DNA of 64,000 nucleotides from positions 62,001 to 126,000 of the forward strand of contig KE561300.1 in the NCBI GenBank assembly GCA_000442015.1. The letters are read 5' to 3'. The notes beneath the pieces are model-generated. The model was not told the origin of the DNA and ran no database searches. It worked only from the letters and a program-made list of their open reading frames with translations. The DNA is from Rozella allomycis CSF55 (lineage: Eukaryota). A program made the translations under genes and the position numbers. Below are positions 6,950-59,158 of this stretch, one piece after another. Every line of letters starts with the position of its first letter. Positions within the stretch are counted from its first letter, which is position 1.

Positions 6950-7021
6950 TCCGCATTGGTCTAGTGGCTAGGATTTTGCGCTTTCACCGCAAAGGCCGGG
7001 GTTCGATTCCCCGATGCGGAA
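6950..7021 (+). tRNA. tRNA-Glu(TTC)
   Basis: Acceptor stem TCCGCAT/ATGCGGA, A box TGGTCTAGTGG, anticodon arm TTGCG-CTTTCAC-CGCAA, B box GGTTCGATTCC, oligo-T Pol III terminator just downstream. Confidence 0.97.
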
Positions 7022-15105: not shown

Positions 15106-15273
15106 GCCAACCCGTGTTACAAAGTTGTGCGGTACAAGAAATTCAATTGGGACGCCTATGCATTTAAAGTTCTTTTATTACTGGTATAATTTGTGTAAAG
15201 AATATTCAAAATTATGAAGATGTATATAACAATCAACCGCACACCCGCCATTTCAGAAATTAGAAATTTGGAT

Positions 15274-25517: not shown

Positions 25518-27403
<1,886 letters not shown>

Positions 27404-27445
27404 ATTTGAAGCCTGTATAAAATAAGATAGCAACCAAATATTTAT

Positions 27446-29062: not shown

Positions 29063-29105
29063 ATCTATAAATCAATGAAGTCCGAAATTTCTGAAATCAT
29101 AGTGC

Positions 29106-29883
29106 ATGAGCGACTCTGAGCCATTAAAAGTCGATTGTTCTTCATGTCGAAAATGGAGAGAGAAATATTTAGCAAGAAATAAAGAACTAAATGAATTGAA
29201 GTCACTAAAAAATGGAGGACATGACAATCTGTACTCACAAGTAAGCGTGTATATATTACTTGTATAAAAGGAAAATCATGATAACTTGGCAAAGGAAGTG
29301 GAAAGGTTAAAGAAAGAAAGGGGCAAAATATGGATGGACTTGGAGCGTGAAGAAGAATTAATAACAAATAACTTGCAAAAGAAGATGGAAAAGCTTGAAA
29401 AAGAAAAAGAAGAGTTGGAAACAAAGCTTTCTAGCGCTACTGTGAGCATGAAAAACAGCGTCGATGATTTTACCGTATTCAGGTCCAGTGGTAACCATTT
29501 TAGCACATATTTAACAGATGAAAGCTCGAGAGTAGAAGAATTAGAAAATGAAATCAAATTATTGAGAAATGAAAACTATTTACTAAAGCTAAAATTGGCT
29601 AGGGAAGAAGAAATGGTTTCCGAGCTTCATCAAGAAAAAGAAGAATTAGCTGTTGCTCTTGAAGCAGACGAGGAGCTGTAAGAAATATACTCCATATCGA
29701 AATAGGTTTTTTAACACTGCCACATCGCCAAACCCAAATGGCCGGCATCGAAGGCAGCGCACTCTTTCATCGAACTCTACTACATCTTCTCTGATTGTCA
29801 CCTCTCCAGTAAAGAGAACAAGAACTCAAAGTGCTGAACGCGGGCTATCTGCCAAATGGGTAAAACACTTGTGGCTAAGTTAG
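29106..29883 (+). CDS. CCDC6 (DUF2046)-like coiled-coil protein (3' end uncertain)
   Basis: LEREEELITNNLQKKMEKLEKEKEEL; LEADEE..FFN. Confidence 0.6.
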
Positions 29884-29924
29884 CTAGTACAACAAGCGAT
29901 CCTCCTCAGCCAGTGGAAATTAAT

Positions 29925-30686
29925 ATGAAACCTTCAAATTTTTACGCAATTTTCCATAATATAAAATGCCCTTCTTCATATGTGTTGTATCATCCACTTA
30001 TTGCTTCTGTTCCAGATGAGGATCCTATTTTTTTCATATCTTTTTCACAGTCTTTTTTTCACATAAGCTCTATATGCAAAAGACTCAGTATTAAAAAGAA
30101 TTTGACTATTGCGACACTCTTCCCGACAGCTATTGCTTCTGCTTCCCATGTTTTGATTCCACTAGAAAACGTTTGCCAGGCATTCGATGCGGCAAAAGAA
30201 TTTATTGAAAAACATTCGAATCCCGTAGTTATAGTTGAAGATATTTCAAGCCTAGTTGTGTTGGGAAAAGGTTCAAAGGAATTAGCTGGTAAAGTTAGCA
30301 CTTTGTGGCATCTTGTTCAGGAAAAAGTAACGATTATTTATATCTGTAACTAATAGAATGGAAACATGATTGTTTCATGTGATTCTTCAGCTGATTTTAC
30401 GGATTCTTGCGATCTTGTCGAGCGGCTCATGTCTTGTAGCGAATTGTATCTCTGTCTTCGACCTCTTACAAGTGGAACAAGTTCCGAAATTGAAGGCCAA
30501 GTATGTACATTTCTTACATTTCAATAGTTAATTTTGGCTAAAGGTGGGAGATACGTATGCAGTGATACTCCATTTCTACACGAGTCTAAAATGAATTTGC
30601 ATTTTGGATCTATGTATCATTTTCGATGGAATGACACACTTGGGCTTCAGTGCTTTAATAAGGGACTCTCAAAGCAAACTATCTAA
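29925..30686 (+). CDS. Elongator subunit 6-like (RecA-like fold)
   Basis: FFISFSQSFFHISSICKRLS; VIVEDISSL; LRPLTSGTSSEIEGQL. Confidence 0.7.
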
Positions 30687-30701
30687 AGAATAAAGGTTCA
30701 T

Positions 30702-32212
30702 TTATTTATCATATTTTTTGTACTGTTCTATTAAATTTTGTATGTTATCCAGGGCAGAGTTGAAATGATCGTTTTCCATAAACTCGAGATAATGATATAA
30801 ATGTGCTTTTCTTCGATAAAGTTTCAAAAATCTTGATTCAATACCTTCAAAAGTGGATGCAATTGACGTATTGTTAGATATAGACAAAACTGTACGCTCC
30901 TATCTATTAAAATCAGTTAAAGTACTGAGAGTAGAGATGGATTCGAGCAATGGCCAACCTTCCATCCATCTTGATTCCAATCTACAAATCTCAGCTGTCT
31001 CTTTAGCTTGTCTATGCTGCGGCGAATATCAGTCAAAGTAAAGTTGCCTCTACAGATAACAGCGGAAGCCAAATATCTTATTTAGTACAATACCAAAAAT
31101 TACGTGTGAGCTTTGGGATTTGTGTCTACTAACATAAACTCTCGTTGGAATAAGTCATTGAATAGTTGATCCGTCCTGAAATAGCAGAGATTTAAAAATT
31201 ACCTCAATGGCTGTAGCTTGGCAGGTTTGAAGAGTGGCGCCATGCTAGTCAAAAGGAAATGCAATTTTGGGAATGGGACAAGATTGGAGGATATTTCATT
31301 TAAATCGACGTTTAGTTCCCCATTAAATCTCATTGAACAAGTAAGATTTAGGAGGAGATTTGCGACGATAGAATTCATGTCGTCAAAGGTTGCCCTCTTG
31401 TCTTTCTTCTGTGGACCAGCAAGCGTATTCTTTGCGTCTTTTATTGAATTCATTTTATCACAAATTGAAAGAAGGCATTTATTTTCTATTGGAAAAACAC
31501 AATCAGCATAATTCACCAATGTGTCTAGGCATAGCAAACTAGATATATGAAAAGAATAGGTGATACCTATTATATGGGCTTGTAATTACAACGTCTTCAA
31601 CTGATGGAAATACGCTGACACACATTCTCATCACATCAGGATATTCATTCGCTAATGTTTGGCATATAAATGATCCCAATCCTGACCCAGTGCCACCTGA
31701 AATAGATTGAAGCAGGAAAAATGACTGTAGAGAATCACAATGCTCCGCTTGTATTCTCACTTGATTCAAAATAGATTCCTTGTATCGATGCCCATATTCA
31801 TGATATCCTTGAGCCCAATTATTTCCACTGCCAGACACATCCGATACCAATTGCTGAGTATCGAAGATTTCCCGTATAGGATTTTTGTTTAATTGATTGA
31901 CAATGACCCCTTCTTCCATATCTACTAGAAGAGCCTTTTATAAAGTTGCAGAAAGGAATACTCTGGCTTTTAGTTGATTTATCCTGCTTTGTGGAGGCAG
32001 AGGTTTTCCATTCTTTTCGTTTCTAAAAAAGGTACACATTTCATCATCGTAAATTCCTGAAGGGTTGAAATGGGCGTGTTCTTGTAAAGCCAATTCCCAG
32101 AACCGTGTTCCGATCTACTAAAGATTGCAGAATTTAATACCTGATTTCCACACTGACCAACTTTTACAGTGGATATAATCTAATTACCTTGGACAAAAAT
32201 GGATTCTGCCAT
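30702..32212 (-). CDS. TUBE1: Epsilon-tubulin
   Basis: MAESIFVQVGQCGNQIG; DMEEGV; SDVSGSGNNWA; GGTGSGLG; DVVITSPYN; LYRRKAHLYHY. Confidence 0.93.
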
Positions 32213-32243
32213 AAAAATTGAGAATTGAAATTTCAGAAAGTAA

Positions 32244-33993
32244 ATGTTGACGTTGGTCAATCTATTATTCTTGCCGGTCAAGGTATGTCAAAAGGCGGCA
32301 ACCGCTTACCTGGATTTCATTGACTTTTGGTGCAGAGTAATTGATTATTTGTAATCTAATAGGTGTTTTTTGTGTCGATTTATCCGACTACCAGGAAAGC
32401 AAATAAATTGCTTTATGACATGGCAGAGGCGAAAAATTATAATGAATGGTTCAGAATAGCCAAAGAGTATGAAAGGTAATTGGGATGGATGTTCATGATA
32501 AAGAATGTCCGGGGTGATTGAGTGGCAAAGAAATCCAAAGTCTTCGTACTATGATTCAGATATGATTGCAAACAAGCTCCATTATTTAAAAAAGATAGAG
32601 CATAGTTCGGATTCATCATTGCTTTTGTTTCATTTGAGAGCCGGGATGATTAGAAATTTGGGGGGTATTGTTGATCCACATTTGTATTCCAATTGTTATA
32701 CGGGCTCCAAAATATTGATTCATGATTATTTGAAAGAAGCTGTAAAAATAATTAAGCACTTAATGGATGATTTGGGCAACAATGCAAATACAATGAAAAG
32801 GGAATTTCTTACTGATACAATAAAGGCGTATGGAAGGACAGCTTTATTTCTTATTGGGGGTGTAGGGTTCGGAACGACTCATTTAGGCGTCGTCAAAGCA
32901 ATGCTCGAAAAAAGGCTTCTGCCCAGAGTGATTTGTGGATCAGCTGTGGGTGCTGTAGTTGCATCATTAGTTTGTGTGTTAGATGATGAAGAATTATTGG
33001 AATTACTTAATGAAGTGAACATTGACTTGAGTGCATTTGAAAAGATAGGAAGTAAAGGAAGTTTAAGAAGAAAAATTGTGAGATTTCTGAAACATGGTAA
33101 ACATTTTTTAATGAATTAATAGGTTATTTGTTTGATGTGAACATTCTTGAAGAATGCATTAGAGCGAACATTGGGGACATCACATTTTATGAAGCATATT
33201 CCAGAACTGGAAGGGAATTGAATATTGTCGTTCAATCATCAAGAAAGCATGAAGTTCCTTTAATATTAAGCCATTTAACAGCTCCTGATGTAGTGATTTG
33301 GTCTGCTGCTTCTGCCAGTTGTGCGATCCCTGGTTTGTATGATTCAGTTCCATTGTTATGCAAAGATGCCAAAGGAAATTTAAGTCATTGGCATGCTACA
33401 GGTATTAAATGGTTAGATTCTTCTTTCCAAACGTAATAATTATCATAAAAGGTTTTTATAGGGAAAAGACAATTGTTAGATTGTCAGAATTGTTTAATGT
33501 TAATCACATCATCGTTTCACAAGCTAATCCTTATATTGTTCCATTTCTTCAACCAACTTATTGCAATAAAAATGGTAACCTTTTTCTTTTCCTCGTGACA
33601 GGCATTCTATTTTTCATATTGAAATTTGGAATGGAAGAATTTAGGCACAGATGGTATCAATTAAAAGAAATTGGATTCTTACCAAACTTTATTTTAAATT
33701 TACAAAAAGTGTTTAGAGGCGCCATCAGAGGTGACGTCACTATTGTCCCTTCTTTTTCAAAATTTGATTATCTTCATTTGCTAGAAAATCCAACAGTTGA
33801 TTCAATAAAAGATGGAATCTTAAAAGGCGAAAAGGCAACCTGGCCTTTATTGGCTAGCATTGAAGCTAGATGCCTCATTGAATTTACATTGCAAGAATTT
33901 TACGACAAGATGTCAAAAGCTAAATCACAGAAACAAGTTCAGGTTGATCCTGCTGCTTTTTCTGCCAAAAAACGAACAAAATCATTTCATTAA
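32244..33993 (+). CDS. Patatin-domain triacylglycerol lipase family (Tgl3-like)
   Basis: YGRTALFLIGG; LLPRVICGSAVG; TAPDVVIWSAASASCA; LSELFNVNHIIVSQANP. Confidence 0.88.
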
Positions 33994-34040
33994 ATGTATT
34001 AAATTAAAATTAACAAAAACACCATTTTATTTCCGCTATT

Positions 34041-34580
34041 TTAATTTCTATCGGTATTTGCATTATTGTTTAGCATTGGCGCTGATGCATTATCAGGCCC
34101 TTCACCCTCATGCCAAGTGAGCGGCAAACCCATTCCCGCTCTTGTCTTCACTGCCTTTCTAGTCTTTTGCACAGTGAAAATCTATATCCACAATATTTAA
34201 TATGATACCTTGATAATTAGAGATGTGATTACCAAAACTAGAGCAAAATAGAATGCAGGATCTGTAAATCCAGTGATGTTGATTGCCAACCACGCAATAT
34301 CTACGATAACACTGGAAGCTGAGAGATAATAAAACTTTGAATTAAATTTAATGGTATTACGTATTTAATTGGCTCAGAAGAGTCTAAATGATGCACCGAG
34401 AAAATCCCAAACAAGTATAATGCTAAATTGTAACTTGATATTGACTGTTGTCCTATTGATGCTGCTAAATACAGGCACTATTGGAAGAAGGTGAATTTTG
34501 TTTACCGAATGGACAAACAGCCAGTGTTCTAACGCCATTGAGAAATTTACAATGGAGTGAGACATCGCGCCTTTAAACAT
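34041..34580 (-). CDS. AGTRAP-like small multi-TM protein (4 exons; missed by the ORF track)
   Basis: Spliced HWLF..SYNLALYLFGIFSVHHLDSSEPIKYF..SVIVDIAWL..FALVLVITSLIIKIF..KTRAG resembles the AGTRAP pattern. Confidence 0.55.
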
Positions 34581-34832
34581 TATTCTAATTTTTGATAGAA
34601 TATTTAATCGAGCAATTAATAAATCATAAATCATTAAAAAACCCATATTTTACCCTCATTGTTGTTTCTCATTTCAAGATAATGTTTTACATCAGGCCGA
34701 GTTTTAAACTTTAAAGCCATGAATAAAATTTAAGCTGAAATGAATTTTTATTTTGATCATTCTATTATCACAAGAATAGTTAATATCAAGCGATGTATTC
34801 CGATCGACCCTTGCAATTTCTACTTTCATAAT

Positions 34833-36555
<1,723 letters not shown>

Positions 36556-36662
36556 ATAAAACTTCTTTTCCTTTAGTTAGATACCTATAATTAGCTGTTT
36601 CATCCCAAACATAGAATCAGTCCCTATAAAACCAGCTTTTATCCCCCTTTTCGCAACAACAA

Positions 36663-37826
36663 ATGTTCAAAAAAGTTTTGCTTGTAACTGTCTTGGCATC
36701 CATGGCTATTGTAAATGCTAACCCGCAAGATGCAAAGGCATATAATAGTGGAAGTCCTTCTTCTACTACTCCCGCTACTTCTGCAAATAATAATACTAAA
36801 GACACTTCCACGACATCAAAGCCCGCTAAAGACTACAATACTTCTTCAAATGAAAACAACTCTGGCTCTGGTTCAGGTTCAGGTTCTAGTTCAGGCTCAA
36901 ATTCTGGTTCAAGTTCCAGTTCTGGTTCGGGTTCAGACTCAAGCTCAGGTTCCAGTTCTGGTTCTAGCTCAAATTCCGGTGGCTCTAGTTCTAGCTCTGG
37001 CTCTTCTGGTGGTTCTTCATCATCATCAAAGTCAGGTGGTAAAAAACGAAGATCCCACAGGCGTAGATCAAGAGGAGGCTCGAGTCAACACGGAGAGCAA
37101 GAGTCAAATGAATCTGCATCAAACGGCAACTCCCAATCCGGAGGTTCTCACGGACATTGGGGGCGAAACTCGGGAAAAAGTTCAAGAGATTATTCTGGAG
37201 GTTCCAACAGTAGTGGGGGATCTTCAGGTGCTGGTGAAAATAGCTCCGCATCTGAGGGTGGATCTAATAGCAGCAGCTCCAATCACGGAAATTCAGGCGG
37301 ACATGGCGGCTCAAATACTGCAGGTAGCTCGTATGGTGGGTTAAGCGAGTCAAATTCTGGATTTGGTGGATTTAATAATGGAGGCCACGGCAAATCTATG
37401 ACAGATGTCTTATCTGGTTTTGGAGGCTCCAGTCATAATGGTTCCTCTTCAGGAAAAGGTTATGAATCTTCAAGTCACGGAAAAGGTCGGGGTGGCAAGG
37501 GAGGAAATTCTTCGGGTTATGGACTGACCAATCAAGGCGATGATGAGTCGAGTCATGGTTCCTACTTTGGTAACGGTGGCGCCAAAGGCGGTAGGTCATC
37601 AGGACACGGAGGAGGTTTCGGCAAAGGTAATGGCTCTTCTTGGACAGGTAATTCATCCAATAATGGTGGGGGTTCTAAAGGGGGTTCAAGTGCTAATGGC
37701 GGTGCAGATTGTGACAAAGGATCGTTTGGCCAATACGATGTAAAATCAAATTCATGGAGTTTAAATGCTTCAGCTAGTGTAATTTTAGCAGCTGTCTCCT
37801 ACTGTATTTACAATAGTGTTCTTTAA
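36663..37826 (+). CDS. Secreted Ser/Gly/Asn-rich low-complexity protein with putative GPI signal
   Basis: Signal peptide [21 protein letters not shown] repeats; hydrophobic C-terminus; intronless. Confidence 0.8.
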
Positions 37827-37859
37827 TAAAGCCATTTTTACGAAATTTCAAATTGTTTG

Positions 37860-38903
37860 ATGGTTCTTGAATCAACCTTTTTAGTGTAAATATATGTCCC
37901 TAATATGTTATAGCTTGGACAACAGTGAATGGATGAGAAATGGAGATTATTTTCCTAATCGGTTTGATGCCCAAAAGGACGGTGTTCAACTTGTTTTTAA
38001 TGCAAAATTTCAGGGTCACCAAGAAAACACTGTGGGTGTATTGGCTATGGCTGGTAAAGCGTAAGAAAAAATATTAAGATGTGAATAAGTCCTGAAGTTC
38101 TTGTAACTTGCACGAACACAAGGGGTCAAGTTTTAAATGCACTTCATGAAATGAAAGTGGGTGGCAAGATTCATTTTGCCCACGGAATACAAATAGCTCA
38201 AGTAATATTTGCAACATGTTTTGTTCTAGCTAGCTTTAAAACATCGTTTGAATAAGAATCAAAGCCAAAGAATTGTTGCTTTTGTAGGTAGTCCCATAAC
38301 TGATACAGAAGAAGAATTAATTAAGCTTGGAAAAAAATTAAAGAAAAATGGAGTAGCCGTTGACGTCGTAAATTTCGGCGAGGAAAACGAGAACAACCAA
38401 ATTCTTGTTTCATTTATTAACAATGTTAATTCAAATGACAATAGGTAAAGTATTCATTTAATGGTTATTATAAGCCATTTAGTGACAATTCCACCTGGGA
38501 CCCACCAACTTAGTGACATGCTTGTTGCAACTCCGATCGTTTCCTCAGATGGCGTCATCCCATCCAATCCAAATGATTTTGAATTCGGAATTGATCCATC
38601 CCTTGACCCAGAACTTGCATTGGTAATTTAATGGATCATAAATTGTGTTAGGCCCTTAGAATATCGATGGAAGAGGAAAGAGCTAGACAAAATCAGCAAG
38701 AAGGCGGCCCATACATAGATCAACCTATGGAGACTGATGAAGATGAAGAACTTAGAAGAGCATTAGCTATGTCCATGCAAGATGCTACATCCGCAGAACA
38801 AGATATGACATCAATGCTACAAGACCTTCCTGGATTGGACCAAAATGATCCGAGAGTTAAAGATGCTTTGAATCCAAACAAATCACCCAAAAAAGATAAA
38901 TAA
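37860..38903 (+). CDS. RPN10: 26S proteasome subunit Rpn10/PSMD4
   Basis: MVLESTFLVLDNSEWMRNGDY; QRIVAFVGSP; DPSLDPELALALRISMEEERARQ; second UIM. Confidence 0.96.
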
Positions 38904-38947
38904 AATTGTTCCTATCCCATTTTATTAATTAATCGAGTGATCTGGTT

Positions 38948-39598
38948 TTAAAGTAGCGAGCATGACTTTTTCTTTTTCAACTTTACAATTAAAGCAGCTC
39001 GAGTTGCTTCTTCAAACACTTCGCGCACGCCCTCATTATTTTTAGCTGAACATTCCAGATATTTCACAGCTCCAATATTGGTAGCAATTTCTCTTGCCTT
39101 TTCATACGAAACTGGTTCTTGGCCATTCTTCGCTAGATCACTGATTGTTTTGGGATCATTTCTTAAGTCCATTTTGCAACCCACTAATATATATGGAAGT
39201 CCCTGACAGAAATGTATGACTTCAGTGACCCACTAATTATTGAGAAATCATACCAATTTTACTTTTTCCACTACATTAGACAATGAATCAGGTGAATCTA
39301 CAGCGTAACATATTAATATGACATGTGATTCTGGGTAACTTAATGGACGCAGCCGGTCATAGTCCTCTTGTCCTGCCGTATCCCAAAGCGCTAATTCAAC
39401 ATGCTTTCCATCTACTTCTACATCTGTCACGTAGTTCTCGAAAACGGTGGGTACATATTTCTAATGGCTTCCAGAAATCAAGTTTACCGTTGGAAATTCT
39501 TTTTTACAATATACAATCAACAAACATGTTTTCCCACAGGCACCATCCCCTACAATGACTAATTTTCGTCTGATCTTTCCTTCTTCGTCTCTTGGCAT
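38948..39598 (-). CDS. RHO1: Rho1/RhoA GTPase
   Basis: [53 protein letters not shown]. Confidence 0.95.
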
Positions 39599-39674
39599 AT
39601 CTAGTGGCACAGCCCTAATTTGATATTTGTCAACAAAGAAATACAATTTCAAACAAAAAGTCAAATATAGTTTA

Positions 39675-40662
39675 TTAACATTGTTTTATGGTTTTTCCGT
39701 GATTTCTATGCTCATATACAAAATTGCAGAAGAACCAGACTTCTTTTTCCCAGTCTAAAAATAGCTTGACCTGGATATATCTCAATGGAGCATCACCCCA
39801 TCTATGTGTAAATATCCGCTTAGTATCGTCAACAGCTTTAAAGAATTCTTCCATTTGGGGTGTTTTAAATCTTTTTATGTCAACAATTTCAAAGTTATTG
39901 TAAAATTGTGGGCACCCGTAGTCTTTTCGTTTGTCGGGACCAGGTATGTACAAATTATTCGTTTTTGCTAGAGTTTCATGACTTTTAATGTAATTATCGA
40001 CAAAATCCATTAATCCTTTATGAAAAATAAGATGTTTGAATACCTTCAATCACGAATGGCATTTCATCAGTAATCAATCTATAGGCGTAAGATTTGTTAT
40101 TGAAATTCATAAATTCAAACGGGTCTTCTAAAATTGGTGAGTGTATGAATGAATCTGTGTCTAAACGAAGATAATAGTCAAATTGCTTCACAATATCCTC
40201 ATACAAGATTTCATAAAACCAAAACCGAATCATCTTTTTATAACCATGTGCCCCTACCCATGCTACTTCTTTATCTTTTGTAAGATCTATATTTTCCGGC
40301 AGTTTCATATGCTTCAATACCAATTTGATATCTAAGCCGAGCTGAACTCCGAAATCCTGAAGCTTTTGCAAGCCGCTTTCTGAATAGGAATCATAAAAGA
40401 GGATGACGGGGTATTTCTTATTGTTTCCCGGAAGAAAATTCTTCTGAAGTAGCGTTAGACTTTCTCTCAATTGATCTTCTCGATTTTCTTGTATCAGATA
40501 TACAATGCATCCTGTTTTAGGTTTCGCAACTGATTTTGATGTAGCCATATCACTTTTTTCACTGGTTTTGTCATTTTGGTTCTTGAAGTGTAAGAGTATT
40601 AATAGCATGGATGCAGCGCACAAGATCATCAAAAGGTTTCGTTGATCTCTAACTTTTACCAT
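39675..40662 (-). CDS. GT15 (Kre2/Mnt1-like) alpha-1,2-mannosyltransferase
   Basis: N-terminal [34 protein letters not shown]; one short intron ~40016-40043. Confidence 0.88.
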
Positions 40663-40799
40663 TCGACTTTTAGTTGCTAGCTACTTTGCAAACATAAACA
40701 AATGTTATGGAAATGGAAATAGAAACATAAAACGTTACCAAATCTTGTCATTTATTATATGTACAAAGTGATATTTGTGCTAGTTCTTATCCTTTACAA

Positions 40800-41159
40800 T
40801 TATAATCTATTTCTTTTAGAAGGTGGTTCGTTTGAATAATTCGTATTCATATCATTACTAGGAGTCCAATTAGACACCGACATTGTTTGTGATGGTGATT
40901 GGTGCCAAAGTGTTCTTGCTTCGGCTTTCTTCCTCCTTTGATAAATAAAGTCATTTAAGCTATCTAATAAATCCTTTTCGGATCGTTCTGGCTGTTGCAA
41001 ATAGTTGGATATGAGGTTATCGAGATCCTTCAAGCAAAGTTTGTATCCGTTATCAAAAGAGCGCCTTTCAGATTGCACTGAATGTGTGTATAAATTTGAT
41101 ACGGCCTGAGCTGCATTACGAAAGGCTGTTGTTAAATGTTCAGTGTCCGTCGGTAACAT
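40800..41159 (-). CDS. HAPSTR1/C16orf72-like small nuclear protein
   Basis: LTTAFRNAAQAVSNLY..FDNGY..CLKDL and C-terminal PPSKRNRL NLS-like end. Confidence 0.6.
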   Translation of the reverse strand: MLPTDTEHLTTAFRNAAQAVSNLYTHSVQSERRSFDNGYKLCLKDLDNLISNYLQQPERSEKDLLDSLNDFIYQRRKKAEARTLWHQSPSQTMSVSNWTPSNDMNTNYSNEPPSKRNRL

Positions 41160-41237
41160 AAACTCCAAGCCACAGTCACCATAAGCTCATTGTTTTGGGG
41201 AAACAGACAAATTTAATTTAAAAGGTAATTTCAGAAT

Positions 41238-41365
41238 AAGGCCATTAAGTTCTGCGAGATTATCTAAGTAATCTTTGTAGCGATTCCCTGGCCTAATAGA
41301 AACTGTCTTTATTAGAACTGGTGCATCCGTTTAGTGAGGTATTGGCGTCAAAAAGTCTTACAATT
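41238..41365 (+). ncRNA. Box H/ACA snoRNA candidate
   Basis: Hairpin GGCCA..TGGCC with internal loop, H box ATAGAA (41296), weaker second hairpin, ACA at 41360 plus 3 nt. Confidence 0.6.
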
Positions 41366-41772
41366 CATTTAATTTGAGATAATACTTATGAAGATTCGAC
41401 TGTATTATAAACTTTAAACATATGTCAGTTATGCTAGTCTGTTTTAACTTTTACACCTGACTTGGTGCACACAGACCCTTTTGGCATTGAAAAATGTGTG
41501 TGTACATAAAAATAAAATTCATTTGTTTTACATAACATGCGCAAGGTTTTACACTTCTTTACATTATCGATTCAATTTCAGTCTCTGATATTCTGATTGT
41601 CTTTATGGCGAGTCAACGGCACGCTTTGCCTAGTTTTCATTGCTGGATATTTCAAATCTTACCGATTGAATTTAAAAGTACCGATAGAAACTAGAGATTT
41701 GTAATGTACGATGTGTGGCGCAGTCTTGGACTGACATTCAGGTAACGACAGCCTTACCAACAGTCAAATCAC

Positions 41773-43948
41773 ATGGGTGTTCATGATCTATGGAAGTTGC
41801 TTGAAGGCTGCTCGAAAAGTATAAACCCGGAAGATCTAAAAGATAGAAAACTGGCCATAGATATCCTTTTTGTTAATTAATTTTTCGACAGTTGTAGTAA
41901 TCCTTGATTCCAAATACCAGTATATGGATGCACCAGTTTGCCAAGGTTGCAGTGTCAAAGCAGCTGAACCAGGACTTTTATATCCAGAGCTTTGCGAAAA
42001 GGCTGTGTAAAATCATGTATTATGGCATTAAGCCTGTGTTTGTGTTTGATGGCGGTGTGCCGTTGTTGAAAAAGGAGACTGTTAGGAAGAGAGGGCGGAA
42101 GGAAGACAGGGATGAAATTAGCTTGATTGCTAAACGGTTGCTGAGGGATCGTTCAAAGTAATGGTGGGTTGGATAGAGTATTAGGTTTGGTTGGAGTAGT
42201 TTAAAAGAAGAGAGTGGTGTTGAAAAGGAAAATGATGTCGTGATTGAAAAGGAAAATGATGTCGCGATGGAAAAGGTAGAATCTGATAGGGAAGAGTGGG
42301 GTGATACGTTTAAGAATGAAGATAATTATCAATTCTATATAGAAGAGAGAGCAGAAATATTGCTTTCGGTTAAAGATAATGTAAGCTGTTTTATTGAGAT
42401 GTAGTAGCCGCTGAACTTTGCAGGCACTCAGATTTCCATGCTCAGTGAGAGACAGAGGGAAAAGGATGAAAAGGAGGAAAGGAGTAATGTGAGAAGAATA
42501 GCATCAAAGGCAAATCAGAGTTACATGATGTGGGAGTATGAAGAATTGAAGGATCCTTCGAGAATGATGACCAACTCTGTTGAACTAAAGGAGGAAGAAG
42601 AAAAGGTTGAAGATTTTGTTAAAGTTGAGGAAACCATTGAAGATATTTTTGCTTCAACGGATGATGAAGAAGAAAAGATTGAGATTTTTAATGAGAGGAA
42701 AGATGATGAGAGGAAAGATTACAAGAGAGATGAGGAATTCAAAACATTGGAGAGATATCAGTTAGTAGCTACAGAAGATTTAGGAGATGAAAAGCAAAAT
42801 GCCAAGAAAATTGTTGAAGAGGAAAAGGATTTAAGTGTAAAGAAGATAGTTGAAGAACAAAAGGCAATTTGTGTAAAACAAGAATATGATGAAGAATCTT
42901 CATTTGTAAATAAAGAAGCCATTAATGAAAGCAATGAAATAAATTCTACTTTGAATAAAGATATTGAAGTTGAAATAGATTATCCAAAAGAGAAAGAGAA
43001 ACAAGAGGAATCAGATTCTGATGTGAGTGATGAATCAGAAGAAGATGAAATTAAAAACAAACTAGTTGAAGTCCGTGAGAATGAATTAGTTGACAGTAAT
43101 GAAAATAGAATTAGTGAGAATGAATTAGCTGAGGTAGTTCAAATCCATCATGAAGATAAAGTCCCATTTTCAGAAAAGGAAGCACCAATGATTTCTAGGA
43201 TAGATCCAGAATTATCTAGTGATATTCAAGTAAATAAAATTAATAAATTTGAAAGAAATTATTACAATTATTTGGTGTTCCATATTTGATTGCTCCAATG
43301 GAAGCAGAAGCGCAATGTGCCTTTTTGGAAATGAATTCACTTGTTGATGGGATTGTAACAGACGATAACGATGTGTTTTTATTTGGCGGTGAAAATATTT
43401 TGAGACATTTTTTCTCCAATTCTAATTCAGAATTATTAAACTATAAAATGTCTTCAATAAGAGAAAAGACTGGCTGGTCAAGAAATGAGTTGATTGATTT
43501 AGCTTTATTGTTGGGAGGTGATTATTGTAATGGTTTAAAGGGAATTGGAAAAGTTAAAGCAAAAGAAATTTTAAATCATTTTCAATCTATTGAATGTTTT
43601 GTTGAATGGTTTCTAAATGGATCAGATGAGAATGTTCCATCTTCAATTATTAAACTACGAAATAAAATTATTCTTCCTGATGACTTTAACGACTATAAAG
43701 TGCGTGATGCGTATTTAAATCCAACTGTAGACCAATCAATGGAACCCTTTCAATGGGGTTCTCCAGACTTTGATGAGATTGCAAAGTAAACATTTTAAAC
43801 TTTAAATTAAAGATTTTTAAACAAAAAGACTAGTCTTTCAATTGAAAAGGCCATGGACTTTTTATCTCCTTTAATTCAGAGAATCAACGAGGGTAAAAAT
43901 AGTGAGAATAGTGGGAATAAAATAACAGACTACTTTGAGAAAAAGTAA
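41773..43948 (+). CDS. RAD2: XPG/Rad2 family endonuclease
   Basis: MGVHDLWKLL..LAID/TSIW; IKPVFVFDG; APMEAEAQCA; TDDNDVFLFG; LLGGDY; PIP-like KITDYF. Confidence 0.9.
41861..41913 (+). other. U12-type (minor spliceosome) intron, AT-AA termini
   Basis: 5' ATATCCTTTT, branch-like TCCTTGAT at 41901-41908; removal restores LAI-D-TSIW. Confidence 0.8.
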
Positions 43949-44041
43949 AAGGAAATTCAAAAGGAAATATCAATGAATCAAAGAAAGTTAAATAGAATAG
44001 AAATAAATAATTTGCTTTAATAATTACTTGCCACTTTTTAT

Positions 44042-46316
44042 TCAATTGTCTAATTCAATTTGAAGTTTGTTGACTTTATCATTTAAATCTTCAATCAGAG
44101 AATGCCTAGAATACAAAATTAAATTTTTTACTGTTTCGTTAACTGATCATGAATCTTTCTTGTTTGAATTGCAATTGAATCTTTCTTCAAAGGAGGGAAA
44201 AGTTTAATTCTTTCAAATTGGCTCTTTAAAGTGCTAAATTTGTTTCTCAATTCAATCATCATTTTCGAATGTCTTGAAATGTCATTCATCAATTCTCTCT
44301 CTTCACTCGATATCGTTGAATTCTTTCTATGCAACAACGACGCGTGAACATTATCAGCTCTTCTGCTCAAACTATCAAATTTTATCAAAATATTCTTAAT
44401 TCTTTCTTCTTGCTCAACTGCCGCCTTTATTGATTCATCAAATCGACCACGCAACTCTTTAGCATTAATTTCCACCTTCTTCTTCACTTGCTGCACTCTT
44501 TCTATCTGATCAACAGTCGCTGTGTTTATTTCCAATATATATTTCACATACACCCTTCTCAACTCATTCAATGTCTCTGTCAGTTCATTCAAGTATTCTT
44601 CATCAACTGGAGTCCCATTTTTAGTTTTAACATTCAAATTAAACTTAGGCAATGGATAATCCTTGACAAAACTCTTAAATTGTCTTCTAGTCGCTGGCTT
44701 AAAAAAATTGGTTAATTAATACAGTGAAAAGAAAACCCAAAGTTTGAAAAGCCATTTATATTGTGTTTGGATGACGCTACGGGAACAGGTACAGGCACAC
44801 AAGACGACCCTTTTGGTATTTTGATGACACCGCATTCATTATTGCAAAACTACGAGAGAATTAAAGAGAAAAAATTACCTTTAGTTCGTCATGTCGATGA
44901 TACATACAAAGTTACGTATTACGTATCTCNGTTCAAATCCAAATCAAATTGCTCTTCAAGTCTTTTAAAATCAAGTTTTTCATCAGTAAAAAGTAACAGA
45001 TTCTTACCAACAACATCAATCCCACACACTCTTTTATTCTCATTCAACAATACTAGCTTGGATTGTATATCAAATCCCTCATCCGATTCAAGCGCCTCCA
45101 GCAAACTATCCATCCATCCAAAACAGACTTGGTAAATGCTACTTTCAAATGCAATTATTAAACTATCATTAAACACAACACCCTGGACATATTCAGAATT
45201 TTTTGAAAGGTCAATCGTCTCCAACAAACTCATCACAGGATATTCAGGTGTTTTATCTATTGAAAAATAACAAGAAACGAAATCAGGATGCGCACAAACA
45301 TCAACAATTCCATTTCTCAATACTCTACAGAGAATAGGAAATCCATCAAACTGAACGCTGTAAATATCAACAGCCTCCAACTCATCTTCATCCAACTCTT
45401 GCGGGAAAAGAAACGGGCCCTGAACTTTGGGCTTTGAATCTTCATCATAGTAGAATTTATACACATTGCCATTCTTTCCATCCAAAATTCTCGATATCGT
45501 ATCCCTGTCCGCCATCGTTAATGCCCTCGTCTCCAATAGTCCAACAACGTCGTCTCCAAGTCTCCTACAGTTAATTCAAAACCATATCACTACATGCAGG
45601 TTGGGATGAACGGCGCAAGTAGATAAATATCGCCATTCTCTTGCAGCAAGTAGAGTGCGGCAACATTCCAAGGCGATGTCTGGCATTCAGCTCCAAAACA
45701 AAATGACACGTATTTGCTCCCAAAAGATGAAAATGATGATGGCGATTTGAGATGCTCAGAGGAGCCCAACACTTGAGAATATACTGGGCATTTAACACTT
45801 TTGGCTACATTGTACATTCTAAAATCCCAAAATCTTCTTTTTACTTTAAATGCCCTCTTTCTGTCAGAATAACCAAAAATTCATCATTGGCACCCAACGG
45901 ATGCCAATCGTACTTTACAATCCTGTCACTCTTCATCTTCTCAACAAACACAGGATCTATTTCATACGATCTATAATTCCTTTAACAAATCCTACCTACT
46001 TTGGCGTACAAAACAGCTCATTAATTCTTGTCAAATCAGGGACCTGCATCACAATAATCTTCTTCTTGCACCGCAGCGCTAACAACATGGATTTCGACAG
46101 TTTCAAATCCTCTACTACATGGTCGATAACACTACTCCTCAATTCAACGTGGTTTTGAGATGCGCTTTTCATGTCACAAGCGAATACTCGGGATCCAACA
46201 GCGTACACCATGGTCGACCCGCAAACGGCAATGTTTCGCTTTGGTAAGATATATTTTCGATCATAAATATGCGAGTTTTCTGTGTTGAAGGATGAAATAA
46301 AGTCAGAAATTTCCAT
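44042..46316 (-). CDS. Nucleoporin Nup82/Nup88-like (beta-propeller plus coiled coil), interrupted at 44700-44930
   Basis: WHPLGANDEFLVILT; LYLLQENGDIYLLAPFIP; PKVQGPFLFP; C-terminal coiled coil. Confidence 0.75.
44728..44929 (+). mobile_element. MULE/Mutator-like transposase fragment abutting an assembly N
   Basis: KPFILCLDD..GTGTQDDPFGILMT..LL..PLVRHVDDTYKV resembles the GxGxxxDPF..LHxDxTYK segment around the first catalytic Asp. Confidence 0.55.
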
Positions 46317-56476: not shown

Positions 56477-59054
56477 TTAAGAAGATTTATTACTTTCTTG
56501 TCCTTCTGATATTTCATGTAGTTTTGATTTCAACTTTGATAGAATGACTTTGATTTGATCTTCCTCTAAATTGGAGTGAACTAAATTTAGCGAGCTGCTA
56601 CAAATCTTTCAGAGTGAAATGGTGAAATTACTTTGAAAATTCTATTCATTTTGATACTTGGTCTGATTCATTTTCAGATTGTATTCTATTTAGCTAGATG
56701 ATTGAAGGGGTATTGAGTTACGATGTTTAAAACTTTATTTGAATAATTTATTAATGGGATTGGGAGATTACAATTTCTAGCCAAGACTAGGCCATAATCT
56801 TTGAGTTCATTTAAACCCATTTGCATTTCATAGTAGAATTTGAAAGAATTGTTTTCAGTGAGTTGAGATTTTAGATGAAAAGAATTGACGTTTGGATAAA
56901 GAGAAAGGGACTCTGCAACTTGTAAGAAATGAGTGACGAAAAAAGAGAAACACTTTTTGAAAAGAAGAGATTAAAATTACTCTTTTTTTAATTAAATGAT
57001 TACAGATTGAAAAGGCGATTGCGGTTCCATCTCTTAAGCTTGTTCCTCTGCCCAATTCATCCATAATGATTAAAGAGTTTTCAGAGAGATTTTCAAGGAT
57101 GAAACTAGTTTCAGTCATTTCCATCATAAAAGTTGAAGTGTTTGATTTAGAATTGTCATCGTTGCATAATCTTGTGAATATTTTATCCATAATTTTAAAG
57201 TGGGCAGATTTGCAAGGGACAAAAGAACCAATCTGAGAAAGAATTTGTAACAAGGCAATTTGACGAATGTAAGTAGATTTGCCGCTCATGTTTGGGCCAG
57301 TTATAATATGAAAATTTAAATTGTCATTTGCATAAACTTGATTTGGAATGAATAAGGGGTTTGAATAAGATTTAAGAGGATGTTTACAATCTTTTAAAGC
57401 TAAAATATTACAAAAGTTTGGTCTAACACAATCATTTGAAATTGCATAATTCGCTAAAGATTGAAGAGTATCAATTATTGCTATAGATTCACTTACTAGA
57501 TACAAATCTTCAATGTATTTATAAACTTGTTCAAATACTTGAGATATTATTTGATTAGAAATTAAATAAATTTCATTTAAACTTTCATTAATTCTTTCAT
57601 TTAGTTTAATTAATTCAATTGTTGTACAAATAAATTCCTTTTTCTTTTTCTGAAAATTCAGAAATAGATCTGGAATATTTTCTTTTTCGTATCTTAAAGG
57701 AACAGAAATTTGATAACAATTAAAAGAAAAGTTTATTTTCAATTCAATTCCAAATTCTTCTGAATATTTCTTTATCAAATTATAAACATCATCTGTTATT
57801 TCTTTATACGCAATTCTAGCTACATCCAACAATCCATTATTCCCTGCTTTTATTGCATAAACTCTTTGATTTCTTGCATTAATCCCTCCCCTTTCAAATC
57901 TCACTTCTTCATTAACAATCCCATTTATTATTTCATACAAATCTTTCAAATTATCTGTTTTCAAATTATTCAAAATATTTTCTAAATCTATATTTAGATT
58001 ACACCCCTGCAATAGATGTGATAGATTGAAAATTTGAACAAGAAAAGATTTCAACATTAACAAATTATTAATATTTCTTTCAGCTTGCTTAACTGAATTT
58101 CTTTTATCCTTTTTAATAAACGCCCCTATTAGTTTGTCAATATCAATCATTCCATTCAACGCTTCATTCACAAAATTAAACTGTTCCTTTGTTTATTTCA
58201 TTCATTCTCTACTTGATTCATCAATAAATCCTCCAAACAATTCAATCTTCCATTGATCCACATAGGATCTTTACTCGGCTGCAGAATCATCATTCTCAAC
58301 AATCTTCCTAAACATTCTCATTCATATTTGTTTATTACTTCCCATCCCAGTATAGCACTTATTCAACATTGAATACAAACTAATCCCATTCTTACTATCC
58401 AACGACTTGACCAACTCCAAATCTCTACTCACATTATAATCCAACATCATCACATCTTCACACACTCTATACTGAAACCTTATCGTATGGCTTGCGAAAA
58501 AAACTTCATTATGCTCTTCCAACGTTCTACCTAAAGCAATGTCCTCCACATTACTTGAACAACGCCGACAATGCAGACAAGCAATAATACTTGCTTTCCA
58601 AATTCATCGTATTCCCCTTCATCTTTATCCCATACTGTCTCACATACTGCAACCCTTCATTATAGAAAATCAAATAACATTACCTGACATGTCATTGTAA
58701 AACTTTCTTGGGACAAACAATGGCGCCGATCCTGTATTCTCTTTAATAAACATGTCAATCTTATTATTATCAGATGTATCAGGTATCAATGTCTACGATT
58801 TCCTTCACTGATCCACCTCACCTGGTTCGACGTGTAGATATTCAACTGCTGCATAGTGCGCACATACAACGGAGTATCAGGATACTTTAACATTCAACTC
58901 ATCTTATTACCTGCAACATGTAGCAATCACATGTACTAGGGTCAAATGCGACCATACCTACCTCTGTAGCTACTCCCCTAGACTCGCAAACACTCGTTAT
59001 AAACCGGCGCTCTAAATTAGTAGTGACGGGCGTAGGCGCACATAGACTGGTCAT
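56477..59054 (-). CDS. MSH4: Meiotic MutS homologue 4
   Basis: ESRGVATEVGM; ITGPNMSGKSTYIRQIA; TSTFMMEMTE; MDELGRGTS; no mismatch-binding domain I. Confidence 0.9.
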
Positions 59055-59158
59055 GACCAGTGGATGGTTGACCCTGGCTAAAACTTTGAAATTTAACAAG
59101 CAATTTCAGAAAAATATGTAAGACATTTAAAAAATCTTTTATTTAAGTTGTTATATGA

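What the first reader, a model, noticed from the sequence alone, without database searches (positions are those of the whole stretch)
41861..41913. Minor-spliceosome (U12-type) intron with rare AT-AA ends in RAD2/XPG
Seen: exon 1 ends LAI-G, followed by ATATCCTTTT (canonical U12 donor) and TCCTTGAT (U12 branch-like). Only an acceptor at ...CCAA (41913) restores the catalytic D-T-S-I-W; the nearby AC, AT and AG acceptors all frameshift. At 53 nt the intron is roughly twice as long as the neighbouring U2 introns, and its branch A is only ~7 nt from the 3' end. Known: animal XPG/ERCC5 carries U12 introns (as I recall, one in this N-terminal region), and most fungi lost the minor spliceosome. Inference: this compact genome retains a working minor spliceosome with relaxed 3' site geometry.
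Basis: partly seen in the sequence, partly recalled or inferred. Interest (0 to 1): 0.8.

Follow-up and report, generated by a model that had tools for sequence, protein, structure and literature searches.

The report
U12-type intron in Rozella XPG gene
The DNA-repair gene XPG/RAD2 of the early-diverging fungal parasite Rozella allomycis is interrupted by a 53-base intron bearing the sequence marks of the rare 'minor' splicing machinery, and the public gene model misses this intron and so loses the start of the protein.

Summary
The window is Rozella allomycis CSF55. Its XPG/RAD2 gene starts at ATG 41773, and exon 1 has 88 coding bases. Bases 41861-41913 (53 nt) open with ATATCCTTT, the U12-type 5' splice-site consensus. 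TCCTTGAT, the U12 branch-site consensus, lies at 41901-41908.

Only removal of these 53 nt joins Pfam XPG_N positions 1-33 to 33-98 and gives LAI-D-TSIW. Seven other tested models (AT-AC, AT-AG, AT-AT, three GT-AG, unspliced) either hit a stop or drop conserved residues. Neither motif is enriched in the window, but their joint chance occurrence at a homology-forced intron is about 3e-7.

The four annotated U2 introns of the gene are 26-27 nt. The public protein begins at Met 42015, 63 residues short. A plant contig and a fungus-like contig carry a GT-AG intron at the same phase-1 position in the Asp codon. Human and mouse ERCC5 carry a U12-type AT-AT/AT-AC intron.

Not tested: splicing itself, and the minor snRNAs and proteins. 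No genome is held and no usable RNA run was found. The branch A lies only 6-7 nt from the productive 3' site, outside the published 11-13 nt optimum. Verdict: a credible unannotated U12-type AT-AA intron, a new member of a known kind.

The parts
41773..41860 (+). Exon 1 of XPG/RAD2 (88 coding nt; MGVHDLWKLLEGCSKSINPEDLKDRKLAI plus the first base of the Asp codon). It is absent from the public protein model.
   Evidence: sequence. Pfam XPG_N profile 1-33, E 4.5e-5, 24.3 bits against a cut-off of 22; public P0001 starts downstream.
41861..41913 (+). Candidate U12-type intron, 53 nt, AT-AA ends, phase 1 inside the catalytic Asp codon. Three further placements, shifted +1 to +3, give the same mRNA.
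   Evidence: Only this excision gives an open 110-aa N-terminus that aligns at residues 1-106 with 86 of 86 homologues (median 95.7 bits).
41861..41869 (+). 5' splice-site motif ATATCCTTT, a match to the U12-type consensus /RTATCCTT.
   Evidence: It is 1 of 8 RTATCCTT sites in the window. The other 7 show no long sense-strand ORF ending at the motif, and several lie antisense to long ORFs.
41901..41908 (+). Branch-site motif TCCTTGAT (consensus TCCTTRAY). The presumed branch A is 41907, 6 nt before the last intron base.
41914..42157 (+). Exon 2. It begins AT ACC AGT ATA TGG, which completes Asp and then reads TSIW, and carries the rest of XPG_N. The public model starts inside it, at Met 42015.
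   Evidence: XPG_N profile 33-98, E 2.3e-15.
42158..42184 (+). U2-type intron, 27 nt, GTAA..AG.
   Evidence: mapping of the public protein P0001 onto the window.
42185..42380 (+). Exon 3.
42381..42407 (+). U2-type intron, 27 nt, GTAA..AG.
42408..43229 (+). Exon 4 (acidic spacer region).
43230..43255 (+). U2-type intron, 26 nt, GTAA..AG.
43256..43785 (+). Exon 5 (XPG_I nuclease domain).
   Evidence: XPG_I, E 1e-25.
43786..43812 (+). U2-type intron, 27 nt, GTAA..AG.
43813..43948 (+). Exon 6, with stop TAA at 43946-43948.

Best explanation
Bases 41861-41913 are a genuine U12-type (minor-spliceosome) intron of the AT-AA subtype. It sits in phase 1 inside the catalytic Asp codon of the Rozella allomycis XPG/RAD2 gene.

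Inferred mechanism:
1. U11 recognises ATATCCTTT at the 5' end, and U6atac later takes its place.
2. U12 pairs with TCCTTGAT and bulges A41907.
3. The 2'-OH of A41907 attacks the G41860|A41861 bond.
4. Exon 1 is then joined to A41914. This rebuilds GAT (Asp) and the motif LAI-D-TSIW.

The result is a protein of about 671 aa, whose first 63 residues are missing from the public 608-aa model.

Shown here: the motifs, their position, the frame logic, the homology across the junction, and the same intron position in two other eukaryotes.

Inferred, not shown: that the intron is spliced at all, that the AA site is used, and that Rozella encodes U11/U12/U4atac/U6atac and the minor-specific proteins.
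For: 1. Organism and gene. The public 608-aa protein P0001, 'XPG-I domain-containing protein [Rozella allomycis CSF55]', maps onto the window without mismatch apart from its four introns.

2. Pfam XPG_N is split exactly at the intron. Exon 1 residues 1-31 match profile positions 1-33. The exon 2 frame matches profile positions 33-98 from its Thr onward.

3. Splice models scored against 86 intact homologue N-termini. AT-AA (53 nt) gives a 110-aa open frame, a median of 95.7 bits and a span of 1-106. AT-AC (57), AT-AG (60), AT-AT (55), GT-AG (26 and 20) and the unspliced form all stop after 33-60 aa and score 30.8 bits or less. GT-AG (125) scores 68.9 bits but deletes residues 9-31.

4. Of 120 XPG hits, 89 carry LAxD-x-SIW, always with exactly one residue between D and SIW (A 68, S 12, V 6, I 3). 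No other spacing was seen. D-T-SIW keeps that spacing.

5. The 5' splice site matches 9 of 9 positions, and the branch site fits TCCTTRAY. [quoted passage not shown]

6. The joint chance of both motifs at a forced intron is about 3e-7 (my arithmetic).

7. AT-AA is a documented U12 subtype: 8 of 66 non-canonical U12 introns in Sheth 2006 Table 2, and the commonest non-canonical ending in animals and plants (Larue & Roy 2023).

8. ERCC5 carries a U12-type intron, AT-AT in human and AT-AC in mouse.

9. The intron position is old. L079 is 89% identical to a Brassicales UVH3. L047 is 58-62% identical to Sorochytrium and Ambispora XPG. Both have exon 1 of exactly 88 coding nt and a phase-1 intron in the same Asp codon, of the GT-AG type.

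10. Among the XPG hits, four public models from early-diverging fungi (three Glomeromycota, the phylum in which Larue & Roy report R. irregularis rich in minor introns, and one chytrid) fail at or just after this site. Ambispora leptoticha P0012 reads LAID-ILTLKQT-MRDKEG, and its D-I-L is what reading into G|ATATCCTT would give. A. gerdemannii P0118 is scrambled there. Rhizophagus P0008 and Gorgonomyces P0009 begin at the MRD(K/P) that lies about 12 residues further on.

11. The rest of the gene is intact, with four cleanly spliced tiny U2 introns.
Against: - No transcript evidence of any kind was obtained.
- No minor snRNA lies in the 64 kb window, and the rest of the genome could not be searched. 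The machinery is therefore unshown.
- The productive AA site is only 6-7 nt from the branch A, whereas the published optimum is 11-13 nt. A canonical AC at 10 nt and an AG at 13 nt lie just downstream and would both shift the frame. By textbook rules the non-productive AT-AC intron of 57 nt is the better-looking U12 intron.
- No second U12-type candidate exists in the window. The other 7 RTATCCTT sites are antisense or not at ORF ends, and the relaxed scan found only in-ORF motifs.
- The two same-position introns recovered from other organisms are U2-type, not U12-type.
- Thr after the Asp was not seen in any of the 89 homologues.
- The assembly at this spot could not be checked against DNA reads.
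Confidence: 0.7

Rival explanations
1. The intron is a real U12-type intron, but the minor spliceosome mainly uses the better-spaced AC (41917) or AG (41920). Most transcripts are then frameshifted. Full-length XPG comes from a minority AT-AA product, or the cell makes only the N-terminally truncated protein from Met 42015.
For: The AC lies 10 nt and the AG 13 nt from the branch A, at or near the 11-13 nt optimum. U12-type 3' site choice is described as error-prone. The public model starts at Met 42015.
Against: Exon 1 is an intact, Pfam-significant XPG_N start. That is hard to explain if it is never joined in frame. The truncated protein would lack the first catalytic Asp and about 62 other residues of XPG_N. 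AC or AG use gives stops after 44-45 aa.
Confidence: 0.12
2. The intron is a relic. Rozella has lost the minor spliceosome, as its microsporidian relatives have. The intron is no longer removed, and the gene is decaying or works only from the downstream Met.
For: No snRNA or minor-specific protein was shown here. The paper searches found nothing on U12 splicing in Rozella. The lineage is reduced and parasitic.
Against: Both U12 motifs are letter-perfect to the consensus and exon 1 is open and conserved. After loss of the machinery these would drift or the intron would convert to GT-AG, as in L047 and L079. The rest of the gene is intact. Rozella is intron-rich, at 2.5 introns per kb (Lim 2021, passages), unlike microsporidia.
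Confidence: 0.07
3. It is an assembly or sequencing error. The true locus holds an ordinary 26-nt GT-AG intron (41872-41897) or another canonical structure, and the U12 look is accidental.
For: GT(41872)-AG(41897) is 26 nt, the modal size of Rozella U2 introns, and is frame-compatible. No DNA reads could be laid on the region.
Against: That model leaves TAA in frame and inserts 9 residues between D and TSIW, where 89 of 89 motif-bearing homologues have fixed spacing. Its donor, GTTAAT, differs from the GTAA of all four annotated introns. An accident would have to create both U12 motifs at the right places, at about 3e-7.
Confidence: 0.05
4. The intron is removed, but by the major (U2-dependent) spliceosome acting on non-canonical ends.
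For: U2-dependent AT-AC introns are reported to exist (Sheth 2006 abstract, search listing). Rozella's major spliceosome already handles extreme 26-27 nt introns.
Against: The 5' end matches the U12 consensus at 9 of 9 positions rather than the local U2 pattern GTAA. The 3' region holds a U12 branch box and no AG. At 53 nt it is off the 26-29 nt U2 mode.
Confidence: 0.05

Closest known systems
U12-type introns with non-canonical AT-AA ends in animals and plants (Sheth et al. 2006; Larue & Roy 2023)
   Same: It has the /ATATCCTT 5' site, a TCCTTRAY branch box close to the 3' end, no polypyrimidine tract and an AA terminus. AT-AA accounts for 8 of 66 non-canonical U12 introns in Sheth's Table 2 and is the commonest non-canonical ending in both kingdoms. 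The host gene is a DNA-repair gene, a class enriched for U12 introns.
   Different: It is only 53 nt long. The branch A is 6-7 nt from the 3' site, against an optimum of 11-13 nt. The host is a rozellid fungus. Splicing and machinery are unshown.
The U12-type intron of vertebrate ERCC5/XPG (human AT-AT, mouse AT-AC; Sheth et al. 2006, Table 3)
   Same: The gene is orthologous, the intron is of the AT-A(N) U12 class, and the 3' terminal base varies between species.
   Different: Whether it is the same intron position was not verified, because the gene-structure paper is not held.
Minor introns of early-diverging fungi (Rhizophagus irregularis n=205, Basidiobolus meristosporus n=249, Spizellomyces, Neocallimastigomycetes; Larue & Roy 2023)
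   Same: These are fungal lineages outside Dikarya that keep U12 introns. Public XPG models of Glomeromycota and of a chytrid fail at or just after this site.
   Different: Rozella and Cryptomycota are not mentioned in the main text of that survey, and its supplements could not be opened. That survey reads introns from annotations, and the public Rozella model does not contain this intron.
Very short minor introns of Blastocystis (mean just under 42 bp, median 39 bp, 77% AT-AC; Larue & Roy 2023)
   Same: It is a compact genome with very short minor introns.
   Different: It belongs to a different supergroup, and most of its minor introns end in the canonical AC.
U2-type intron at the same position in other eukaryotes (loci L079 plant-like, L047 fungus-like)
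   Same: Exon 1 has 88 coding nt and the intron is in phase 1 in the same Asp codon.
   Different: These introns are GT-AG, 78 and 65 nt long, with no U12 motifs. They are either converted forms or the ancestral state.

Membership tests
U12-type (minor-spliceosome) intron | 5' splice site matching /RTATCCTT at the first intron base | tested here: met
   ATATCCTTT lies at 41861-41869, exactly at the boundary that homology demands.
U12-type (minor-spliceosome) intron | Branch-point box TCCTTRAY near the 3' end | tested here: met
   TCCTTGAT lies at 41901-41908.
U12-type (minor-spliceosome) intron | Short branch-to-3'-site distance (optimum 11-13 nt). The review calls this an important recognition factor, not a defining feature. 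| tested here: inconclusive
   The productive AA site is 6-7 nt from A41907, which is shorter than the optimum. The AC at 10 nt and the AG at 13 nt fit the optimum but shift the frame.
U12-type (minor-spliceosome) intron | No polypyrimidine tract before the 3' site | tested here: met
   Only TCCAA separates the branch box from the 3' end.
U12-type (minor-spliceosome) intron | Terminal dinucleotides of a documented U12 subtype | tested here: met
   The ends are AT-AA. This subtype is documented in human, mouse and Arabidopsis and is the commonest non-canonical type.
U12-type (minor-spliceosome) intron | The intron is actually excised at these boundaries in RNA | not testable with these tools
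U12-type (minor-spliceosome) intron | The organism encodes U11, U12, U4atac and U6atac snRNAs and minor-specific proteins | not testable with these tools
   No genome is held for the window. The 64 kb window holds only a tRNA. No in-session query sequence for the minor-specific proteins was available.
U12-type (minor-spliceosome) intron | A U12-type intron at the orthologous position in other species | tested here: inconclusive
   ERCC5 has a U12-type intron, but its position was not verified. The same-position introns in L047 and L079 are U2-type. The Ambispora protein P0012 reads D-I-L into the site, but no DNA was available.
XPG/RAD2 (FEN1-superfamily structure-specific nuclease) | XPG_N and XPG_I domains separated by a long spacer | tested here: met
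   XPG_N scores E 2.3e-15 (exon 2) and 4.5e-5 (exon 1), and XPG_I scores E 1e-25. The best hits are RAD2/ERCC5/UVH3 proteins.

The most novel reading that the evidence does not exclude
Rozella allomycis, sister lineage of the nearly intron-free Microsporidia, keeps a working minor spliceosome that has adapted to a tiny-intron genome. It splices a 53-nt AT-AA intron whose branch adenosine is only 6-7 nt from the 3' site, and it passes over a canonical AC and an AG at textbook spacing. That would mean the distance rule for U12 3'-site choice is not fixed. It would also mean this intron is an ancestral U12 intron of XPG, kept at the same phase-1 Asp codon since before fungi and animals split, while plants and other fungi converted it to U2 type. 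Annotation-based surveys would then undercount minor introns in such genomes.
Probability: 0.4. Interest if true: 0.65.

Novelty: new member of a known kind. Interest (0 to 1): 0.5.

Why it matters
- It corrects a public gene model. The Rozella XPG protein gains 63 N-terminal residues, including the first catalytic Asp.
- If splicing is confirmed, it places a working minor spliceosome in Rozellomycota, next to Microsporidia. That would date the loss of minor splicing in that clade to after the split.
- It offers a natural test of how the minor spliceosome chooses its 3' site. A productive AA lies at 6-7 nt from the branch A, and frameshifting AC and AG sites lie at 10 and 13 nt.
- It points to the same unannotated intron in Glomeromycota and a chytrid. 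It also shows that GT-AG-only annotation hides minor introns from surveys that read annotations.
- It is not a new kind of element.

Tried and rejected
- Whole-genome search for U12 and laying of the genome: no genome is held for this window.
- Rfam scans of the window at gathering and at E<=1: only a tRNA and one chance miRNA-like hit, and no snRNA.
- Sequencing runs: no RNA holder was listed. The one RNA run offered, a metatranscriptome with the same species label, had a word share of 0.00. Laid on 26000-45999 it gave 14 short, partial, 90-99% matches and nothing on the gene. This says nothing either way about expression.
- Earlier findings of this scan: nothing for this genome, these words or look-alike stretches.
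- Second U12 intron in the window. The other 7 RTATCCTT sites show no long sense-strand ORF ending at the motif; 9432 and 9979 are antisense to the CAP gene. 9432 is also the reverse complement of part of a minus-strand U2 intron. The relaxed donor plus branch scan returned only motifs inside continuous ORFs, apart from 41861. 27917(-) lies in coding sequence next to a normal 26-nt U2 intron. GTATCC at 58885(-) is an AG|TATCC exon start.
- Metagenome scan for XPG N-domains. 587 stretches matched, 451 were confirmed and the best 80 were kept. Of these 80, 78 read straight through the site (mostly Dikarya) and 2 have a U2-type intron there. No rozellid relative and no U12-type orthologue was recovered.
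- Search for short ORF fragments related to exon 2. The 6 hits were Batrachochytrium and unnamed organisms. All were intron-less at the site and none was a close relative.
- Literature. Rozella + 'minor spliceosome' gave 1 paper, on Polycomb, which I did not open. Rozella + U12 gave 0. 'Minor introns' + Rozella allomycis gave 0. The mixed search listed no paper holding both a Rozella/Cryptomycota term and a U12 term (30 of 632 listed). Three Rozella/intron papers do not discuss U12 or minor splicing; one cites a minor-spliceosome paper in its reference list. Larue & Roy's main text has no 'Rozell', 'Cryptomycota' or 'Microsporidia'. Its supplements and the introns.info database may list Rozella and could not be seen.
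- Emmert 2001 on XPG gene structure is not held, so the position of the human U12 intron is unverified.
- A variable-gap pattern search failed on syntax. I used instead.
- Minor-spliceosome proteins in the Rozella proteome: no in-session query sequence existed, so this was not attempted.
Full report
**What the window is.** The 178-aa XPG_I frame at 43253-43789 is 99% identical to a 608-aa public protein, P0001, named 'XPG-I domain-containing protein [Rozella allomycis CSF55]'. P0001 maps onto the window without mismatch apart from its introns. The window has about 35% G+C. It also carries a class II tRNA synthetase, a formin, a GT10 fucosyltransferase, CAP, a GT5 glucan synthase, a cyclophilin, a patatin-like lipase, an ATPase alpha/beta subunit, a Na/Ca exchanger, an M24 peptidase, a kinase and a MutS homologue. 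No whole genome is held for it.

**The observation.** One search shows the ATG at 41773. Exon 1 has 88 coding bases ending ...CTG GCC ATA G at 41860. Then come ATATCCTTTTTG (from 41861), TCCTTGAT (41901-41908)...TTCCAA (ending at 41913) and AT ACC AGT ATA TGG. Exon 1 reads into a stop at 41878-41880, and the exon 2 frame opens only at 41901. Pfam XPG_N matches exon 1 residues 1-31 to profile positions 1-33 (E 4.5e-5, above the curated cut-off). It matches the exon 2 frame, from its Thr, to profile positions 33-98 (E 2.3e-15). The domain is therefore cut in two exactly here, with nothing missing and nothing added if 53 nt are removed. Bases 41861-41863 repeat at 41914-41916, so four placements of the 53-nt excision give the same mRNA. 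'AT-AA' is the placement that aligns with the /ATATCCTT consensus.

**Alternatives at the same spot.** In one search I built eight splice models by slicing the window. I scored the resulting N-termini by blastp against the 86 homologue N-termini that have an intact start and motif.
- AT-AA (53 nt): 110 aa open, aligned at residues 1-106 with 86 of 86 homologues, median 95.7 bits.
- AT-AC (57), AT-AG (60), AT-AT with the donor fixed at 41861 (55), GT-AG 41872-41897 (26), GT-AG 41872-41891 (20) and unspliced: all stop after 33-60 residues and score 30.8 bits or less.
- GT-AG 41796-41920 (125): 68.9 bits, but it deletes residues 9-31.

The 26-nt GT-AG option deserves mention. It has the modal size of Rozella introns and restores the frame. 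However, it leaves TAA 41898-41900 in frame and would insert nine residues. Among the 120 XPG hits, 89 carry LAxD-x-SIW, always with exactly one residue between D and SIW (A 68, S 12, V 6, I 3) and never another spacing. Rozella's D-T-SIW keeps that spacing, although Thr itself was not seen in those 89.

**Is it more than chance?** RTATCCTT occurs 8 times in the window against 5.71 +/- 2.28 expected. TCCTTRAY occurs 11 times against 12.82 +/- 3.48 expected. The motifs as such are not enriched. The other seven RTATCCTT sites show no long sense-strand ORF ending at the motif, and several lie antisense to long ORFs; one is the reverse complement of part of a minus-strand U2 intron. The significance lies in co-location. 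The intron's boundaries are fixed by homology alone. Using the window's own motif frequencies, the chance that one of its four placements starts with RTATCCTT and that TCCTTRAY lies within about 16 positions of its 3' end is about 3e-7 (my arithmetic).

**The neighbouring introns.** Mapping P0001 gives four introns of 27, 27, 26 and 27 nt, all GTAA..AG. A crude scan for GT..AG segments that bridge two long open frames gave 71 candidate regions. Of these, 30 are 26-29 nt long; the longer ones are mostly noise. Further single examples are a 26-nt intron at 27842-27817(-) and one at 58912-58887(-). The 53-nt interruption is thus twice the normal size, starts differently (ATATCC rather than GTAA) and has no AG at its end.

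**The public model.** P0001 begins MYYGIKPVFVFDGG, at Met 42015 inside exon 2. Exon 1 (88 nt) plus 41914-42014 (101 nt) add 189 nt, or 63 codons, in frame. The full protein would therefore be about 671 aa. The published model lacks the first catalytic Asp, which is what a GT-AG-only gene caller would produce.

**Comparative evidence.** I aligned exon 2 with eleven homologue N-termini and used the alignment to scan JGI/ENA metagenome contigs. That gave 587 matched stretches, 451 confirmed, and the best 80 kept. Of the 80 loci, 78 read straight through LA(I/V)D-xSIW (mostly Dikarya; the basidiomycete-like ones have an intron further upstream). Two have an intron at exactly this point.
- L079 is 89% identical to a Brassicales UVH3. 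Its exon 1 has 88 coding nt ending ...GCC ATC G, followed by GTAAAC...TTTGCAG (78 nt) and then AT GCG AGT ATA TGG.
- L047 has 59% G+C and is 58-62% identical to Sorochytrium and Ambispora XPG. Its exon 1 has 88 coding nt ending ...GCT GTT G, followed by GTACGA...TGTGTAG (65 nt) and then AT GCG AGT ATT TGG.

The phase-1 position in the Asp codon is therefore shared by a plant, an early-diverging-fungus-like organism and Rozella, but in the first two the intron is U2-type.

At the protein level, among the hits, four public XPG models from early-diverging fungi (three Glomeromycota and one chytrid) fail at or just after this site. Ambispora leptoticha P0012 reads LAID-ILTLKQT-MRDKEG. Its D-I-L is what one gets by reading on into G|ATATCCTT, as in Rozella's own unspliced frame (LAIDILF). 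A. gerdemannii P0118 is scrambled there. Rhizophagus P0008 and Gorgonomyces P0009 begin at the MRD(K/P) that lies about 12 residues further on. This is a lead, not proof, because I could not fetch their DNA.

**Literature.**
- Sheth et al. 2006 (tables seen) list ERCC5 among non-canonical U12-type introns, AT-AT in human and AT-AC in mouse. They count 8 AT-AA among 66 non-canonical U12 introns.
- Turunen et al. 2013 (passages) state four relevant points. [quoted passage not shown] Non-canonical termini can support U12 splicing. The optimum branch-to-3' distance is 11-13 nt. 3' site choice is error-prone, and U12 introns are enriched in DNA repair genes.
- Larue & Roy 2023 (passages) report several relevant results. 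AT-AA is the commonest non-canonical minor ending in animals and plants. Minor introns are absent from Dikarya but numerous in Rhizophagus (205) and Basidiobolus (249), and present in Spizellomyces and Neocallimastigomycetes. Blastocystis minor introns have a median length of 39 bp. Introns under 30 bp were excluded. Their main text does not mention Rozella, Cryptomycota or Microsporidia. Their supplements and database, which may list Rozella, were not available to me.
- Searches for Rozella with U12 or minor-intron terms found nothing relevant. Three Rozella/intron papers do not discuss U12 or minor splicing. Lim et al. 2021 give 2.5 introns per kb for Rozella.

**What it most likely is and how it works.** By sequence class this is a U12-type intron. 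The inferred path is as follows. U11, and later U6atac, binds ATATCCTTT. U12 pairs with TCCTTGAT and bulges A41907. The branch forms at G41860|A41861. Exon 1 is then joined to A41914, which rebuilds the Asp codon. The sequence, the frame logic and the homology are shown. The chemistry, the machinery and the choice of the AA site are inferred.

The odd point is geometry. The productive 3' site is 6-7 nt from the branch A. An AC at 10 nt and an AG at 13 nt follow at once, and both shift the frame. Either the Rozella minor spliceosome works with a shorter spacing, in keeping with a genome whose major introns are 26-29 nt, or a share of the transcripts is mis-spliced and lost. Only junction reads can tell these apart.

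**Rivals.**
- Mostly non-productive AC/AG use (0.12).
- A relic intron in a genome that has lost the machinery (0.07). The letter-perfect motifs and the intact exon 1 argue against this.
- Assembly error hiding an ordinary intron (0.05). The in-frame stop, the fixed D-x-SIW spacing and the improbability of both motifs arising by accident argue against this.
- Removal by the major spliceosome (0.05).

**Verdict.** The feature is a new, unannotated member of a known kind in a lineage where I found no report of it. Interest is moderate: it corrects a gene model, bears on when minor splicing was lost near Microsporidia, and offers a natural test of U12 3'-site choice.

Noticed in passing
window 42015 (start of public model) versus 41773 (ATG proposed here): The public Rozella allomycis XPG protein (608 aa) starts at an internal Met. 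It lacks 63 N-terminal residues, including the first catalytic Asp, apparently because the non-GT-AG intron was not modelled.
   Followed up: yes
P0012, P0118 (Ambispora), P0008 (Rhizophagus), P0009 (Gorgonomyces): N-termini: The public XPG models of three Glomeromycota and one chytrid are scrambled at this intron position or begin about 12 residues after it. P0012 reads D-I-L into the site, as if the donor were G|ATATCCTT. This suggests the same unannotated U12-type intron in those genomes.
   Followed up: partly
whole window, e.g. 42158-42184, 43230-43255, 27842-27817(-), 58912-58887(-), 9448-9421(-): Rozella's ordinary introns are tiny. The four in XPG are 26-27 nt, and 30 of 71 ORF-bridging GT..AG candidates are 26-29 nt. 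Nearly all start GTA.
   Followed up: partly
L047:488-552 and L079:373-450: A fungus-like and a plant metagenome contig have a GT-AG intron in phase 1 of the same Asp codon after an 88-nt first coding exon. The intron position is shared across kingdoms.
   Followed up: yes
window 13405-15174 (-): A long open frame (589 aa) has the GT5 starch/glycogen-synthase catalytic domain plus a GT1 domain, that is, a GT5-type glucan synthase.
   Followed up: no
window 56855-59105 (-): A MutS homologue (domains III, IV and V) is split by 26-nt introns. I checked it because MSH3 carries a U12 AT-AA intron in human, but no U12-like donor was found here. Its subfamily was not determined.
   Followed up: partly
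window 6950-7021 (+): A single tRNA gene (Rfam 62.7 bits) lies directly after the formin gene.
   Followed up: no
window about 44900-44930: There is a single N in the assembly, inside overlapping open frames on both strands downstream of XPG.
   Followed up: no
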